From IMG/VR virus record IMGVR_UViG_2974696732_000001: a DNA stretch of 58,707 nucleotides. One strand, written 5' to 3'. Shown one piece after another: positions 14,348 to 19,422 of the stretch. Each line of letters opens with the position of its first letter. Positions within the stretch are counted from its first letter, which is position 1. The stretch is from a virus (lineage: Duplodnaviria > Heunggongvirae > Uroviricota > Caudoviricetes). The position numbers were made by a program, and so were the translations under genes. A model generated the notes under the pieces. It saw nothing but the letters and a program-made list of their open reading frames with translations, was not told where the DNA came from and searched no databases.

Positions 14348-14418
14348 AGCCCCGCAAGAGAATCGAACTCTTAACTCTTCATTACGAAAGAAGTGCGTTA
14401 CCATTACGCCAGCGGGGC
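14348..14418 (-). tRNA. tRNA-Thr (anticodon CGT), CCA not encoded
   Basis: Cloverleaf GCCCCGC/GCGGGGC, D arm GCGT/ACGC, anticodon loop TTCGTAA, T loop TTCGATT. Confidence 0.9.
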
Positions 14419-14930: not shown

Positions 14931-15470
14931 TCAGTACCAATTATTGCGCTGGAAGAATGACCATGCGTTACAAGGTGTGCCGTAACGGTCTTCGATGTAA
15001 TCCACACCCCACTTTACTTGGGTGAAAGGATTCGTCTTCCAGTCCTTCCCAGCACTCGCCATCTTCGAAGCCGGTAGCGCTTGAGGAATCCCAAAAGCAC
15101 CTGATGAAGGATTAACTGCCTTGTGGTCCCATTCACTCTCATTGTTCCAAAGATTGTTCAGACATGAGAACTGCTTGTGACCGACCTTTTCCTTAGCGTA
15201 CTCCCTTGGAGTTGGCTTGGGAAGCGGCTTTCGCTCCAGAAGCGAACTCAAGGAAGGCTTAGGCGTAAGACTTGGCTGTGTTACAGCCTTTGGTGTCTCA
15301 CTCTTGCTTGGTGTTGCTGATGGCGATGGTGACGGACGTTCAGCTACCTTCTGCTCTTGCTTATCAAGAGGGAAGGTGCCTACTTCTGACCAGGCAGTAA
15401 CGAATACGGATGTCGCCACTCCCAGAAGCAGAGCACCAGCGGCTATATTGCCCCTCATATCTTGACCCAT
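14931..15470 (-). CDS. Membrane-anchored lytic transglycosylase (SLT-like)
   Basis: N-terminal TM helix, Pro/Ser linker, CLNNLWNNESEW...GAFGIPQALP...QVKWGVDYIEDRYG; RBS GGAGG. Confidence 0.85.
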   Translation of the reverse strand: MGQDMRGNIAAGALLLGVATSVFVTAWSEVGTFPLDKQEQKVAERPSPSPSATPSKSETPKAVTQPSLTPKPSLSSLLERKPLPKPTPREYAKEKVGHKQFSCLNNLWNNESEWDHKAVNPSSGAFGIPQALPASKMASAGKDWKTNPFTQVKWGVDYIEDRYGTPCNAWSFFQRNNWY

Positions 15471-15500
15471 TGTTACCTCCAAGTCCGAGTCAGTTCAAAG

Positions 15501-15529
15501 AGACTACAGGGACTGGAGTTAGGTGTCAA
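15501..15529 (-). promoter_or_regulatory. Promoter for the transglycosylase gene
   Basis: TTGACA-17-TAGTCT. Confidence 0.75.
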
Positions 15530-15693
15530 GTCAGAACAGAGATGTACTTCACAATCTTTACGGAAGTGGCTCCGTCAGCTTCAAGTTCAGCCTTCTCAAG
15601 GAGGGCTTCCGCATGGGAAACGATTTCGTTCGTTTCTTTGATTTCTCCCTTAGTGTTTCTGTACTTAAGGAAGTATCCCTTGACTTCTGTCAT
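15526..15693 (-). CDS. Small protein (55 aa, not in track), paralog of 15690-15863
   Basis: MTEVKGYFLKY...KAELEADGATSVKIVKY. Confidence 0.75.
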   Translation of the reverse strand: MTEVKGYFLKYRNTKGEIKETNEIVSHAEALLEKAELEADGATSVKIVKYISVLT

Positions 15694-15863
15694 GATTCCT
15701 CAAATCGTAGGTGGTCGAACTTTACAATCTTCACGTTCCTGGCTCCATCTTCCTCAAGGATAGCCTTTTGGATGTTGGCAGAACTGCGATTGAAAAGTTC
15801 ATCAGTTTCTAGTTTTACTCCATCTAGCTCGTAAGTTAGATAGAATCTGTGATTTCTTTCCAT
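15690..15863 (-). CDS. Small protein (57 aa, not in track), paralog of 15526-15693
   Basis: MERNHRFYLTY...KAILEEDGARNVKIVKF; RBS GGAG; ATGA coupling. Confidence 0.75.
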   Translation of the reverse strand: MERNHRFYLTYELDGVKLETDELFNRSSANIQKAILEEDGARNVKIVKFDHLRFEES

Positions 15864-16210
15864 CCTTCTTCTCCTTGAATTTGAATAGATTAAATCCCCC
15901 CCCCAGCGTGCCTAGAGTGATAATCACTCGCTGTTGAGTCTGCGTCACTGCCACGACAAGGGCCTCACAGTCACACGCACCTTGTCCTCTGGTGTTAGCC
16001 TTTGCTAACTTCTTCACTTTGAATTTCCGGGCTTTCGTATAGACTTGGCGGAAGAACGGGTCAAGAAGGCCATTAGACTACGAAGACAGTGACATTCGTA
16101 GAATTTGTCTATACCACAGCTATGTGTGACGCGGTTAGCCTCCGCGAGCCTTCCCCTTGTCGTCCATGTGGCTAGGGTCCTATTATTTCAAGGAAGGAGA
16201 ACTCTGGGGC

Positions 16211-16369
16211 AAATAAAAAGGACCCCGGAGGCTCGCCCCCTCCAGGGTCCTGTCTAGACTTACGTCTAGTATCCCACGCTGGGGCGAGCAGCATGTGTTG
16301 TTATCAACACCATACCACACGGTCGCAGCGTGTGCAAATCTGTCATAATTGAGCCATGACTCAACCACT
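16211..16369 (-). ncRNA. Candidate ~155-nt structured RNA or attenuator
   Basis: Promoter 16376-16404; four hairpins; terminator 16219-16251 whose loop is complementary to 16281-16289. Confidence 0.55.
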
Positions 16370-16404
16370 GATATAATCGTAGCATAGCTCAAAGAGCATG
16401 TCAA
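16349..16404. promoter_or_regulatory. Overlapping divergent promoters
   Basis: Plus strand TTGAGC-17-TATAAT (16349-16377); minus strand TTGACA-17-TACGAT (16404-16376). Confidence 0.75.
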
Positions 16405-16419
16405 CGACGAAGGGAAGCT

Positions 16420-17388
16420 ATGGATATCAGCTTTTCAACGATTCCGGGCAATTTGAACACGACCATCGGATATGGCGTGGCCGGATTCAACATGGTTCGC
16501 AGTCTACAGAAGCTAGGACATAGAGTCCCCTTTGCAGACAAGAACTGTAAGATTGAGATTTTCTTCTCACAGCCAGATTACTGGGAATGGAGCAACCAGT
16601 TCTCCTATCATATCGGATACACCCCATGGGAGTCAACAGGTCTGCCAGCAGGCTGGTTGGAACAAATGAATCTTGCTGATGAGGTGTGGACCACATCAGA
16701 GATTATCAGACGATGGTACACAGCGGCCGGTGTGAAGAACGTAAAGGTCTATCCTCATGGCATTGACCCTCAATGGACTCCAAAGAAGAGAAATGTCTAC
16801 GAGAAGATGCGATTCCTGCACATGGGAGAGCCTGCACCTCGAAAGGGTGGACAAATGGCCGTCGATGCATTCCGGGCGGCATTCGGAGACAGTTCAGATG
16901 TAGAATTGACCGTAAAGGCTCACAGACTCAACAACACCAGACGTATCTTTGACGGCCGTATTCTCGGACCAATCACTGACTACAACAATGTCAGACTGGT
17001 TACACAAGAACTCCCAGAAGACCATCTGGTCAGCTTTGTAAAATCCTACCATGTCATGGTCTATCCGAGCTGGGGAGAAGGCTTCGGCCTCATTCCGTTC
17101 CAGGCAATCGCCACAGGAATGCCCACAATCTGCACTGAGAAATGGGCACAATACAGAAGCTATCTTGGTCCACTCGGCCTTGATTCAAAGCTCACAGACT
17201 CACCATGGCCCGGTGTTCATCCAGGAAAGATGCTCGAACCGAGCTTCGATGACCTTGTGGATAAGTACCGCTATGCATACGACAATTTCGATGAACTAAG
17301 CAACTACTTTTACGCTCAGGCACCCAAGTTGCACGAAGAATACAACTGGGAAACGCTGACAGAGAAGGCTTTCGCCCACTTGATTTAG
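16420..17388 (+). CDS. Glycosyltransferase, GT4/GT-B type
   Basis: YPSWGEGFGLIPFQAIATGMPTICT (E-X7-E-like motif); RKGG motif. Confidence 0.85.
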   Translation: MDISFSTIPGNLNTTIGYGVAGFNMVRSLQKLGHRVPFADKNCKIEIFFSQPDYWEWSNQFSYHIGYTPWESTGLPAGWLEQMNLADEVWTTSEIIRRWYTAAGVKNVKVYPHGIDPQWTPKKRNVYEKMRFLHMGEPAPRKGGQMAVDAFRAAFGDSSDVELTVKAHRLNNTRRIFDGRILGPITDYNNVRLVTQELPEDHLVSFVKSYHVMVYPSWGEGFGLIPFQAIATGMPTICTEKWAQYRSYLGPLGLDSKLTDSPWPGVHPGKMLEPSFDDLVDKYRYAYDNFDELSNYFYAQAPKLHEEYNWETLTEKAFAHLI

Positions 17389-17469
17389 GTGGGCGTTTGC
17401 TGTACCATTGAGGAACTACGCGATGATTAGCCGTGCCCTCTACAAGCACGGCCAGAAGGGATTTTTACT

Positions 17470-19422
17470 TTGACTTTGGTCGATGACAAGGGCTTCCTCA
17501 CGGACCCTTACAGAAACTTCATCCACACCAGTCGATACGCAAGGTACCGTGATGACCTTGGACGACGTGAGACTTATGTGGAGACTGTTGACAGATACAT
17601 GAACTACATGCGCAACAGTCTGATTAACAATCACGGATACGGAATTCCCGAAGAGGATTACAACCTCGTACGGGAATTTATTCTTGAGCAGGCTTCAATG
17701 CCCTCCATGCGTGCCATGATGACTGCTGGTCCAGCACTAGACCGCGACAATGTTGCAGCCTACAACTGTTCCTACGTCACAATTGATGACCCACGAGCAT
17801 TCGATGAGACCCTGTACATTCTTATGAATGGTACAGGAGTTGGTTTCTCTGTCGAAGAGAAGTACGTTCGAAAGCTCCCGGTCATTGCAGAAGAGTTTGA
17901 AGCCACAGAAACAGTAATCAAGGTTGCTGACAGCAAGGAAGGTTGGGCACGAGCATATCGTGAGCTACTTAGCCTTCTATGGGGTGGTCGTGTACCTCGC
18001 TGGGATACCTCTAAGGTCCGTCCAGCAGGAGCAAGGCTAAAGACTTTTGGTGGTAGAGCTTCTGGTCCTGGCCCACTAGAACAGCTTTTCCAGTTCACGA
18101 TTGATATCTTCACCAAGGCGGCCGGTAGGCAGTTGACCTCTCTTGAGGCCCATGACCTTGTATGTAAGATTGCAGAAGTTGTAGTTGTTGGTGGAGTAAG
18201 GCGTTCAGCGCTTATTTCTCTTTCCGACCTCTCTGACCTCCGCATGGCTACAGCAAAGTCCGGTAGTTGGTGGGAAGGAAATGGTCAGCGAGCCCTTGCA
18301 AACAACTCAGTAGCTTACACCAGCAAGCCTGATATGACCGCCTTCATGGCTGAATGGAAGAACCTCTACGATTCCAAGTCTGGAGAGCGTGGAATCTTCA
18401 ATAGGCAGGCTGCTAAGGCTCAGGTACTTAAGAATGAAAGGCGAGATGGCAATTTCGACTTCGGAACTAATCCATGTAGCGAAATTATCCTTCGACCTAA
18501 CCAGTTCTGTAACCTGACTGAGGTTGTTGTTCGACCAGACGACACTACAGAGACTCTGATGCGCAAGGTAAAGGCCGCCACAATTCTCGGAACGTGGCAG
18601 TCAACACTTACGAATTTCAAGTACCTTCGCAAGGTCTGGAAGAAGAACACAGAGGAAGAAAGACTACTTGGCGTCTCTCTTACCGGCCAGTTCGGTAACA
18701 GACTGATGTCAGGCCAGGAAGGCATTAAGGAGCTAAGGGACGCCCTTGAAGCTCTCAAGTACAAGGCGGTGGCAGTAAATGCTGAGGTTGCCGATGCAAT
18801 CGGTATCCCTCGCTCTGCTGCAATTACCTGTGTCAAGCCTTCTGGAACTGTCTCACAGCTAGTGGGTGTTCCTTCTGGAATGCACACCGAGCATGACCAC
18901 TTCTACATCAGAACGGTACGAGGAGACAACAAGGACCCTCTTACTCAGTTCCTCAAGGACAGTGGCGTTCCAAACGAGCCTGACGTAATGAAGCCTAATG
19001 ACACCACAGTCTTTAGCTTCCCTAAGAAGGCGGCAGAAGGTGCGCTCACTCGAAATGACCTTACAGCAATCGAGCACCTTGAGATTTGGCTAGCTTATCA
19101 GCGAGCCTGGTGTGAGCACAAGCCATCTATCACTGTTTCTGTAAAGGAGCACGAGTGGATGGAAGTAGGAGCTTGGGTTTACAAGCACTTCGATGAAGTG
19201 TCTGGAATCTCATTCCTACCATTCTCAGAGCACACTTACAAGCAGGCTCCTTACCAGTCAATTACTGAGGCTGAGTACAAGGAATGGCTTGAGAAGATGC
19301 CTGATGAAATTCAGTGGGACCTTCTTCCTACATACGAAGAAGGCGACAACACGACAGGTTCTCAGGAACTTGCGTGTAGCGCAGCCGGTGGTTGTGAGGT
19401 AGTTGACATTACCTACAATTGA
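17470..19422 (+). CDS. nrdJ: Class II (B12-dependent) ribonucleotide reductase
   Basis: YNCSY, GTGVGF, GGVRRSA, TNPCSEI, ITCVKPSGTVSQL, C-terminal CSAAGGC. Confidence 0.92.
   Translation: MTLVDDKGFLTDPYRNFIHTSRYARYRDDLGRRETYVETVDRYMNYMRNSLINNHGYGIPEEDYNLVREFILEQASMPSMRAMMTAGPALDRDNVAAYNCSYVTIDDPRAFDETLYILMNGTGVGFSVEEKYVRKLPVIAEEFEATETVIKVADSKEGWARAYRELLSLLWGGRVPRWDTSKVRPAGARLKTFGGRASGPGPLEQLFQFTIDIFTKAAGRQLTSLEAHDLVCKIAEVVVVGGVRRSALISLSDLSDLRMATAKSGSWWEGNGQRALANNSVAYTSKPDMTAFMAEWKNLYDSKSGERGIFNRQAAKAQVLKNERRDGNFDFGTNPCSEIILRPNQFCNLTEVVVRPDDTTETLMRKVKAATILGTWQSTLTNFKYLRKVWKKNTEEERLLGVSLTGQFGNRLMSGQEGIKELRDALEALKYKAVAVNAEVADAIGIPRSAAITCVKPSGTVSQLVGVPSGMHTEHDHFYIRTVRGDNKDPLTQFLKDSGVPNEPDVMKPNDTTVFSFPKKAAEGALTRNDLTAIEHLEIWLAYQRAWCEHKPSITVSVKEHEWMEVGAWVYKHFDEVSGISFLPFSEHTYKQAPYQSITEAEYKEWLEKMPDEIQWDLLPTYEEGDNTTGSQELACSAAGGCEVVDITYN

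What the first reader, a model, noticed from the sequence alone, without database searches (positions are those of the whole stretch)
16211..16404. Highly structured ORF-less RNA with a terminator loop that can pair upstream (switch or pseudoknot)
Seen: TTGACA-17-TACGAT drives about 155 nt containing the hairpins UUGAG/CUCAA, CACACG/CGUGUG, GUAU-G-GUGUUG-AUAA-CAACAC-AUGC and CUAGAC-GUAA-GUCUAG. It ends in a 13-bp terminator plus UUUUU. The terminator loop GGGCGAG is exactly complementary to the single-stranded CUCGCCC 45 nt upstream (9 bp with flanks). The promoter overlaps the divergent promoter of the glycosyltransferase-nrdJ unit, at the point where the genome switches strand. Inference: a novel ncRNA with a loop pseudoknot, or an antiterminator/riboswitch gating the leftward middle operon (transglycosylase, dps, thyX).
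Basis: partly seen in the sequence, partly recalled or inferred. Interest (0 to 1): 0.75.

Follow-up and report, generated by a model that had tools for sequence, protein, structure and literature searches.

The report
Phage small RNA with kissing loops
An unannotated small RNA gene of large Streptomyces phages forms hairpins whose two loops stay perfectly complementary in every relative, even though the loop letters keep changing; this points to a loop-to-loop "kiss", possibly between copies of the RNA, and not to a metabolite switch.

Summary
On the minus strand a host-type promoter (16404..16376) leads to a strong intrinsic terminator (16251..16219 plus a U-run). The RNA folds far better than shuffles (z -5.3) and matches no Rfam family.

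The window is about 99.9% identical to Streptomyces phage PinkiePie (cluster BE). The element lies at the same place in about 80 relatives and is almost never annotated.

The terminator loop and the upstream 7-mer are complementary in all 24 variants examined, in at least 16 different sequence versions. So the pairing is under selection.

New points:
- The upstream partner is not a free strand. It is the loop of the best-conserved hairpin (95.6% paired), so this is a loop-loop kiss.
- A second promoter, conserved in 24 of 24 variants, lies inside the RNA and predicts an 89-nt short form made of the two kissing hairpins.
- No antiterminator pairing or aptamer-like conserved core is present.
- The RNA is swapped as a cassette. 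Two phages whose flanks are 99-100% identical differ at 17% of RNA positions.

Best reading: a stand-alone phage sRNA whose function depends on the kiss, plausibly between molecules, since several variants have linkers too short for an internal kiss. Its biological role is unknown. The riboswitch reading is not supported.

The parts
16376..16404 (-). Promoter P_a: -35 at 16404..16399, 17-bp spacer, extended -10 at 16381..16376. Predicted start about 16369.
   Evidence: Consensus scan, 10 of 12 matches plus TG. Present in all 24 variants.
16349..16377 (+). Divergent promoter of the glycosyltransferase-nrdJ unit. Its -10 overlaps the P_a -10 by 2 bp, and its -35 lies in the 3' arm of P1.
   Evidence: Gene annotation from PinkiePie.
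16214..16369 (-). Long form of the RNA, about 156 nt: P1, P2a/P2, P3, P3b, P4, P5.
   Evidence: Fold z = -5.3. Helices counted on 24 sequences. No Rfam family.
16347..16366 (-). Hairpin P1 (7 bp, 6-nt loop).
   Evidence: 91.1% of cells paired; 2 pairs with changes on both sides. Also predicted by RNAalifold.
16309..16338 (-). Internal promoter P_b: -35 around 16338..16332 (degenerate in this lineage), TG at 16317..16316, -10 at 16314..16309. Predicted start is A at 16302, inside the P3 loop.
   Evidence: Counts over 24 sequences: -35 TT 24, G 22, A 22, C 24; -14 G 24; -12 T 24; -11 A 24; -7 T 24; +1 A 24. Spacer is 17 or 18. Distance from -10 to +1 is fixed. Scored 10 of 12 with TG in Sushi23.
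16316..16334 (-). Hairpin P2a (6 bp). It competes with the long-range helix P2 (16332..16326 with 16281..16275).
   Evidence: P2a 70.1% paired, P2 77.5% paired, both with compensatory changes. Bare conformers: -60.8 vs -59.6 kcal/mol.
16291..16315 (-). Hairpin P3. Its 5' arm contains the P_b -10 box.
   Evidence: 7 of 10 pairs have changes on both sides. Frequent U-G pairs fix the strand as RNA.
16275..16295 (-). Hairpin P3b (7 bp). Its 7-nt loop, 16288..16282, is kissing loop 1.
   Evidence: Best-supported helix: 95.6% paired, 4 of 6 pairs compensatory. Found independently by RNAalifold. Present in the MFE of the short form in all type I and II variants.
16254..16269 (-). Hairpin P4 (6 bp, GUAA loop). 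Optional: absent in Warpy, Jay2Jay and Mandalore.
16219..16251 (-). Terminator hairpin P5 (13 bp). Its 7-nt loop, 16238..16232, is kissing loop 2.
   Evidence: 9 of 13 pairs compensatory.
16214..16218 (-). U-run of the intrinsic terminator; predicted 3' end.
16214..16302 (-). Predicted short form (about 89 nt from P_b): 7-nt leader, P3b, P4, P5.
   Evidence: MFE -44.2 kcal/mol, 42% of the ensemble, z = -4.74.

Best explanation
This is a discrete, unannotated small-RNA gene shared by the BE-cluster Streptomyces phages (Boydwoodruffvirinae).

Host RNA polymerase starts at two tandem extended -10 promoters. P_a gives about 156 nt. P_b, embedded in the RNA, gives about 89 nt. Both transcripts stop at the same strong intrinsic terminator.

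The part conserved across the family is a pair of hairpins, P3b and the terminator P5. Their 6-7-nt loops are fully complementary and form a GC-rich Watson-Crick loop-loop helix of 6-9 bp (a kiss). Selection acts on this pairing and on hairpin shape, not on primary sequence.

I infer that the RNA works through this kiss, most probably between molecules: a reciprocal homodimer or a larger assembly, as in phi29 pRNA and other self-associating RNAs. In the long form, the alternative helix P2 plus extra pairs hides loop 1. So the two promoters would give a masked and an exposed version.

The loop sequence acts as an allele-specific address, and the whole RNA is exchanged as a cassette between otherwise near-identical phages.

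Shown: sequence, fold statistics, covariation, promoter conservation, cassette boundaries. Inferred: transcription, intermolecular pairing, any biological role.
For: - Real and conserved. The window is 99.9% identical to PinkiePie. The element is at the same place in 79 phage records, with nothing annotated under it in almost all. Types by 3' half: 23, 9 and 11 records, the rest BE2 types.
- Structure. z = -5.3. On 24 sequences 78-79% of cells are paired, against 36-45% for slid partners, and 0 of 500 shuffles reach the covariation score.
- Kiss. The helix is 83.6% paired and 6 of 7 pairs have changes on both sides, despite some misaligned rows. Alignment-free: own loop-to-strand complement averages 7.8 nt, against 4.3 nt between phages, over 15 distinct loops. 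Persimmon adds a 16th compensated version.
- The partner is a hairpin loop: P3b is 95.6% paired and RNAalifold picks it unaided.
- Strand. U-G and G-U pairs occur in P3, P3b and P5.
- Internal promoter invariant in 24 of 24.
- Stand-alone cassette. Sushi23 and Pepperwood show 27 differences within 744-906 of the locus (RNA = 739-896), against 8 in the other 1440 nt. Sushi23 and LilMartin share the RNA at 95% but their downstream DNA is unrelated.
- Loops diverge (0.38 pairwise difference) while neighbouring stems do not (0.00-0.05).
- Crude geometry: the linker is too short for an internal coaxial kiss in Jay2Jay, Warpy, Mandalore and CeilingFan.
- Precedent: short natural RNAs assemble through intermolecular kissing loops (PMC4201828; PMC12286853; bioRxiv 10.64898/2026.07.01.735769).
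Against: - There are no expression data. Promoters, start sites and the 3' end are predictions.
- Intermolecular versus intramolecular pairing cannot be decided in silico. The geometric argument is a back-of-envelope estimate. It fails for variants with long linkers, and for the long form with P2 in place of P3b.
- In the Daubenski type the partner strand is not clearly in a hairpin loop, and the pairing can be an ordinary nested helix.
- Loops that carry no known pairing vary as fast as the kissing loops. So diversifying selection is not shown, only strict compensation.
- In relatives with the type B downstream block no host-type promoter was found before the next gene, so read-through may matter there.
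- No function or partner was identified.
Confidence: 0.55

Rival explanations
1. Intramolecular pseudoknot or kiss only. The loop pairing compacts and stabilises a monomeric sRNA, for example against 3' exonucleases. The sRNA's real job (decoy, protein sponge or regulator) lies elsewhere.
For: Both partners sit on one transcript, 26-43 nt apart. The long form with P2 in place of P3b leaves loop 1 in an internal loop, from which a hairpin-type pseudoknot is sterically possible. P2 covaries in type I and EGole-type RNAs. Variants with P4 or long linkers could reach.
Against: P3b is the best-conserved helix and presents the strand as a closed 6-7-nt loop. Linkers of 5-8 nt in four variants cannot span two intact stems plus the loop helix. 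The short form cannot make P2. There is no conserved single-stranded seed for a trans target.
Confidence: 0.25
2. Cis-acting leader of the leftward operon. The kiss, or the accumulated short RNA acting on nascent long RNA as with P4 CI or P1/P7 c4 RNA, sets how much transcription passes the terminator into the small-protein, transglycosylase and HNH genes.
For: Two strong tandem promoters head the leftward gene array. Relatives with the type B downstream block show no host-type promoter before the next gene. In this window the candidate downstream promoter has an imperfect -10. Lineage-specific compensated RNA-RNA pairing is how P1 and P7 differ in immunity (own knowledge, not tested here).
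Against: No conserved antiterminator: arm complementarity equals the cross-phage control. There is no aptamer-like conserved core and no Rfam riboswitch hit, including at E up to 10. The terminator is strong in all variants. 215-350 nt separate it from the next start codon. Homology breaks at the terminator end, so RNA and downstream genes assort independently. No third copy of either loop sequence occurs nearby or in the genome.
Confidence: 0.13
3. Origin-associated transcription. The tandem promoters and structured transcript mark a replication origin (primer RNA or transcriptional activation), as at T7 phi1.1A/B, T4 oriF/G or ColE1 RNA II.
For: The locus is the point of divergent transcription. 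It coincides with the minimum of cumulative GC skew and the sign change of AT skew. It has tandem promoters with no ORF.
Against: The skew change is explained by the switch of coding strand alone. A strong terminator ends the RNA. No iterons or AT-rich unwinding element were seen. Covariation shows selection on RNA loops, which a primer does not need.
Confidence: 0.05
4. No function: chance hairpins between a promoter and a terminator.
For: None beyond the lack of expression data.
Against: z = -5.3. Compensatory changes in every helix, and 16 compensated loop versions.
Confidence: 0.02

Closest known systems
phi29-family prohead/packaging RNA (pRNA, Rfam RF00044)
   Same: A phage-encoded, ORF-less RNA of about 120-170 nt made from a host-type promoter. 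It shows little sequence conservation but a conserved fold. Two loops of the same molecule are complementary and covary among relatives, and in pRNA they pair between molecules to build rings (PMC4201828, PMC5066667).
   Different: No match to the pRNA model. The loop helix is 6-9 bp here against 4 bp in phi29. The second loop belongs to the transcription terminator. The host phage is a 132-kb siphovirus with an ordinary terminase-portal module, not a phi29-like podovirus. There is no evidence of any packaging role.
ColE1 RNA I / RNA II (and TAR-TAR*) fully paired 6-7-nt kissing loops
   Same: Hairpin loops of 6-7 nt in which every loop base pairs with the partner loop. The loop sequence acts as a specificity (incompatibility) code that changes by compensated substitutions (own knowledge).
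   Different: In those systems the partners are antisense transcripts from opposite strands. Here both loops are on the same strand and the same RNA, and no replication control is evident.
Same-strand antisense immunity RNAs: P1/P7 c4 and P4 CI RNA (Rfam C4 family)
   Same: Phage RNAs that pair with complementary segments of the same transcription unit. Lineage-specific compensated changes define their specificity. P4 CI acts on termination (own knowledge).
   Different: No Rfam hit. The phage is lytic. No target overlaps a ribosome-binding site. There is no third complementary site. The terminator is intrinsically strong.
RNA-only homo-oligomers (ROOL, GOLLD, OLE, manA motif)
   Same: Natural, often phage-associated non-coding RNAs in which covarying loop complementarity turned out to be intermolecular kissing loops (PMC12286853; bioRxiv 10.64898/2026.07.01.735769).
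   Different: Most of those RNAs are larger or more ornate and have conserved cores. This RNA is a minimal two-hairpin module, and its oligomeric state is untested.
Riboswitches with a kissing-loop expression platform (for example cobalamin L5-L13)
   Same: The loop of an expression-platform hairpin pairs with an upstream loop.
   Different: No conserved ligand-binding core, no cmscan match, no alternative antiterminator. The RNA is transcribed away from nrdJ.

Membership tests
Any Rfam 15 family | Covariance-model score at or above the gathering threshold | tested here: not met
   The only hit in the window is tRNA-Thr at 14348-14418. With E up to 10 over 15700-16500, the best hit is ctRNA_p42d at 18.8 bits against a threshold of 50, covering the terminator hairpin only.
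phi29 pRNA | Match to RF00044 | tested here: not met
   No hit.
phi29 pRNA | Two loops of one RNA complementary and covarying among relatives | tested here: met
   At least 16 compensated versions.
phi29 pRNA | Intermolecular ring formation and binding to the portal of a phi29-like podovirus | not testable with these tools
   The host phage is a siphovirus of Stanwilliamsviridae. Oligomeric state is unknown.
Riboswitch | Highly conserved unpaired nucleotides forming a ligand pocket | tested here: not met
   Invariant columns fall in the shared 5' start region, in P1 (which overlaps the divergent promoter), at promoter positions (-35, TG, -12, -11, -7, +1), at one loop G and at one U of the U-run. 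The 3' half is constrained only by pairing.
Riboswitch / attenuator | Mutually exclusive antiterminator that pairs with a terminator arm | tested here: not met
   Own versus cross-phage complementarity: 5' arm 5.42 vs 5.50 nt; 3' arm 5.92 vs 5.81 nt. The terminator is in the MFE of all variants.
Riboswitch / attenuator | Controls the gene directly downstream | tested here: inconclusive
   Homology breaks at the terminator. However, no host-type promoter was found in the type B downstream block.
Intrinsic (Rho-independent) terminator | GC-rich hairpin followed by a U-run | tested here: met
   13 bp, 9 of them G-C, 7-nt loop, five T then A and TTT.
Primary-sigma (HrdB / sigma-70) promoter, extended -10 class | TTGACA-like -35, 17-18-bp spacer, TGn, TAnnnT; activity in vivo | tested here: inconclusive
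   The sequence criteria are met for P_a. For P_b they are met in 24 of 24 variants, with an invariant A at +1. Activity was not tested. The P_b -35 is degenerate in this window's lineage.
tRNA (EGole gene 42 is annotated tRNA-Arg) | Cloverleaf recognised by tRNA finders across homologues | tested here: not met
   ARAGORN calls a 95-nt tRNA only in EGole, and none in 15 other loci or at this place in the window. The Rfam tRNA model gives no hit here.
C4 / CI same-strand antisense RNA | Rfam C4 model match; complementary target at the RBS of a downstream gene | tested here: not met
   No hit. No further copy of either loop sequence occurs near the locus or in the genome.

The most novel reading that the evidence does not exclude
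The RNA is a minimal natural self-assembling module. Two hairpins with mutually complementary 6-7-nt loops, joined by a linker too short for an internal kiss, would form reciprocal homodimers or rings. The loop sequence would be an allele-specific address, so that RNAs of co-infecting relatives do not cross-associate. This would make it an RNA-level self/non-self (incompatibility-like) determinant, exchanged as a cassette among near-identical lytic phages. The inner promoter would produce the assembly-competent form.
Probability: 0.3. Interest if true: 0.82.

Novelty: new variant of a known kind. Interest (0 to 1): 0.68.

Why it matters
Large lytic actinophages are annotated almost only for proteins and tRNAs. 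This is a well-supported RNA gene that about 80 deposited genomes miss, or mislabel as a tRNA or a hypothetical protein.

It offers a compact natural system of 89-156 nt for studying fully paired kissing loops. More than 16 ready-made compensatory alleles already exist in nature.

If the kiss is intermolecular, it would join the few known natural RNA-only assemblies. It would also suggest address-coded RNA recognition in competition between phages.

It further shows a functional-looking promoter embedded in a structured RNA, which would give a masked and an exposed isoform.

Practically, genome annotators should add this feature and remove the false tRNA-Arg and CDS calls.

Tried and rejected
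- Rfam at gathering and at permissive thresholds: nothing.
- tRNA-like origin: rejected.
- Trans target inside the phage: the 9-mer occurs only at the two loop sites in PinkiePie, and 1-mismatch hits are at control level. There is no consistent third site in 24 loci.
- Antiterminator search: negative.
- A 15-mer scan of the metagenome and IMG/VR collections gave mostly chance hits. It added one real metagenome contig (L082) and two UViGs.
- The recurrent AGGACCCT motif is not enriched (5 found vs 2 expected; 7 of 100 shuffles reach 5).
- A possible phage-specific promoter motif of the type B block does not recur in the window.
- The 350-nt block downstream of the terminator is not unusually structured (z = 0.32).
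- The two small downstream proteins were tested as possible Rop-like binders of kissing complexes. They are paralogues of phrog_8915, with no Pfam family. The model (pLDDT 86.6) has three strands and one helix (strand-strand-helix-strand), is not a helical bundle, and has no significant PDB match.
- The literature searches found no description of non-coding RNAs in these phages.
- The whole genome of the window is not held, so the PinkiePie record was used instead.
- No covariance model was built. MAFFT places the LukeCage-type and Daubenski-type rows out of register in the loop columns, so the pair counts for the kiss are conservative.

Full report
**What and where.** The window is a large lytic Streptomyces phage of cluster BE (Stanwilliamsviridae, Samistivirus). 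The stretch 15800-16800 is 99.9% identical to phage PinkiePie (window position = record position minus 828). The finding lies in the 556-bp gap between a leftward array and a rightward array. The leftward array holds two 55-57-aa paralogues, a glycosyltransferase/hydrolase, an HNH gene and tRNA-Thr. The rightward array starts with glycosyltransferase, nrdJ, HNH and endolysin, followed by further rightward ORFs whose function I did not check. In PinkiePie and nearly all relatives nothing is annotated under the element.

**Checking the observation.**
- The promoter is at 16404..16376, with an extended TG.
- The overlapping divergent plus-strand promoter is at 16349-16377.
- Four hairpins follow, then a 13-bp terminator (16251..16219) with a U-run.
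- The terminator loop (16238..16232) is the exact complement of 16288..16282. The match is 9 bp with flanks and the gap is 42 nt.
- The 166-nt stretch folds at -74.3 kcal/mol, against -52.7 +/- 4.1 for dinucleotide shuffles (z = -5.3).
- Rfam gives no family at gathering or permissive thresholds.

**Relatives.** BLAST finds the element at the same place in 79 phage records, all Streptomyces BE phages. I collected 24 distinct versions from phage records, IMG/VR and one metagenome contig. Persimmon and Larnav were added later. The 3' halves fall into several types:
- window type: 23 records;
- EGole type: 9 records;
- Daubenski type: 11 records;
- the rest are BE2 types.

**The loop pairing is selected.** In every version the terminator loop is complementary to a segment at a fixed position upstream, yet the sequences differ. 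There are 15 distinct loops among the 24, and Persimmon adds a 16th. At one position close relatives carry U-A, A-U and C-G.
- Alignment-free test: the longest Watson-Crick match between a phage's own loop and its own upstream RNA averages 7.8 nt. Between different phages it averages 4.3 nt.
- On the 24-sequence MAFFT alignment, where some rows are out of register, the helix is 83.6% paired and 6 of 7 pairs have changes on both sides.
- For the whole structure, 0 of 500 shuffles reach the observed covariation score. Sliding the 3' partners drops pairing from 78-79% to 36-45%.
- U-G and G-U pairs in P3, P3b and P5 show that selection acts on RNA of this strand.

**The partner is a hairpin loop.** The best-supported helix of the whole RNA is a local hairpin, P3b (16295..16275). 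It is 95.6% paired and 4 of 6 pairs are compensatory. RNAalifold predicts it unaided, together with P1 and P5. Its 6-7-nt loop is the segment that pairs with the 6-7-nt terminator loop. So the interaction is a fully paired loop-loop kiss. Nearest-neighbour energy is about -12.8 kcal/mol for 7 bp and -19.5 kcal/mol for 9 bp. An alternative long-range helix, P2, uses the same 3' strand and also covaries in the window and EGole types (77.5% paired). In the window's long form the two bare conformers are nearly isoenergetic (-60.8 vs -59.6 kcal/mol). The MFE is the P2 conformer with extra pairs that partly hide loop 1.

**A promoter inside the RNA.** About 70 bp after P_a lies a second extended -10 promoter pattern, conserved in all 24 versions.
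- -35: TT 24 of 24; G, A, C at 22-24 of 24.
- Spacer: 17 or 18 bp.
- -14 G, -12 T, -11 A and -7 T: each 24 of 24.
- An invariant A exactly 7 nt after the -10 box.
- The sequence between these positions varies and covaries as RNA helices.

The predicted start (16302) lies in the P3 loop. The short form of about 89 nt contains only a short leader, P3b, the optional P4 and P5. It folds into that shape as a dominant MFE (42% of the ensemble, z = -4.74). In this window's own lineage the -35 is degenerate. Transcription from either promoter is an inference.

**Against a riboswitch or attenuator.**
- The terminator arms are no more complementary to their own upstream RNA than to other phages' RNAs.
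- The terminator is part of the MFE in all variants.
- Downstream of the internal start site the only invariant letters are one loop G and one U of the U-run.
- 215-350 nt separate the terminator from the next start codon.
- Homology between phages breaks at the end of the U-run. Sushi23 and LilMartin share the RNA (95%) but have unrelated downstream DNA (59%, the level of unrelated pairs).

One caveat remains. In relatives with the other downstream block, the scan finds no host-type promoter before the next gene. Read-through may therefore matter there.

**The RNA is a swapped cassette.** Sushi23 and Pepperwood are 100% and 99% identical in the 300 nt on either side but only 86% identical in the RNA. 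Over 1.6 kb, 27 of their 35 differences fall between positions 744 and 906, where the RNA occupies 739-896. The window against LilMartin or Warpy shows the same pattern more weakly. Persimmon, whose flanks are about 96% identical to the window's, carries an EGole-type RNA. Within the window type, the loops differ by 0.38 per site while the adjoining stems differ by 0.00-0.05. Loops with no known pairing vary as fast, so this shows strict compensation and not proven diversifying selection.

**Intra- or intermolecular?** This cannot be settled by computation. A rough estimate compares the length of two intact stems plus the loop helix with the reach of the linker. By this estimate an internal coaxial kiss is out of reach in Jay2Jay, Warpy, Mandalore and CeilingFan (5-8-nt linkers). 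It is borderline in many others, including the window. Short linkers fit a reciprocal dimer. Precedents are phi29-family pRNAs (PMC4201828, PMC5066667) and recent cryo-EM work. That work shows natural RNAs, some under 200 nt and some phage-associated, assembling through kissing loops (PMC12286853; bioRxiv 10.64898/2026.07.01.735769). The long form with P2 could instead make a hairpin-type pseudoknot.

**Other ideas tested.**
- No other copy of the loop sequences exists in the PinkiePie genome or near the locus.
- The EGole "tRNA-Arg" is an ARAGORN call unique to that phage.
- The downstream small proteins are paralogues of unknown function, with three strands and one helix and no informative structural match. 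Nothing links them to the RNA.
- The cumulative GC-skew minimum at 15-18 kb coincides with the switch of coding strand, so it does not by itself indicate an origin.

**Verdict.** This is a real, conserved, unannotated phage RNA gene with a selected loop-loop pairing, an embedded second promoter and cassette-like exchange. It belongs to no described family. What it does for the phage is unknown. My best reading is a stand-alone sRNA acting through the kiss, plausibly as a dimer (confidence 0.55). The rivals are a purely intramolecular fold (0.25) and a leader that controls read-through (0.13).

Noticed in passing
L012:792-886 (EGole); L015:710-1024 (Bmoc); Elmer gene 45: GenBank annotations over this RNA look wrong. 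EGole has a 95-nt 'tRNA-Arg' that ARAGORN calls in that phage only; I suspect it reads the loop pairing as an acceptor stem. Bmoc and Elmer have 'hypothetical protein' CDSs lying over the RNA.
   Followed up: partly
window 16372-16381: The -10 boxes of the leftward promoter P_a and the rightward glycosyltransferase promoter overlap by 2 bp, back to back. One RNA polymerase probably excludes the other. The P_b footprint would also reach the rightward -35.
   Followed up: no
window 15864-16213 (minus strand): This is a 350-nt conserved non-coding block (type A: window, Mildred21, LilMartin, Warpy, Jay2Jay, Sollertia, Mandalore). Sushi23, Pepperwood, Tomas, EGole and others have an unrelated type B block instead. 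Type A has a promoter-like site with an imperfect -10, a possible 10-codon ORF with synonymous-looking changes, and a run of nine G just before the next ribosome-binding site. It is not unusually structured (z = 0.32).
   Followed up: partly
window 15526-15863 (minus strand): Two tandem paralogous genes of 55 and 57 aa (phrog_8915, no Pfam family). The confident AlphaFold model has three strands and one helix (strand-strand-helix-strand) with no significant PDB match. A homologue is the first gene after the RNA in most relatives examined.
   Followed up: partly
window 15000-18000: The minimum of cumulative GC skew and the sign change of AT skew coincide with the point of divergent transcription. 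A replication origin is possible, but the strand switch alone can explain the skew.
   Followed up: no
L011, L013, L154, L181 (Daubenski, BoomerJR, Wofford, Peebs): In this RNA type the loop-bearing hairpin is weaker, with a 12-nt loop and a short U-run. A second strong terminator hairpin follows it. The complementary strand may form an ordinary nested helix rather than a kiss.
   Followed up: partly
L008:734-874 (Warpy): In Warpy the loop of hairpin P2a is also complementary to kissing loop 1, so it could compete with the terminator loop. This is not seen in the other variants.
   Followed up: no
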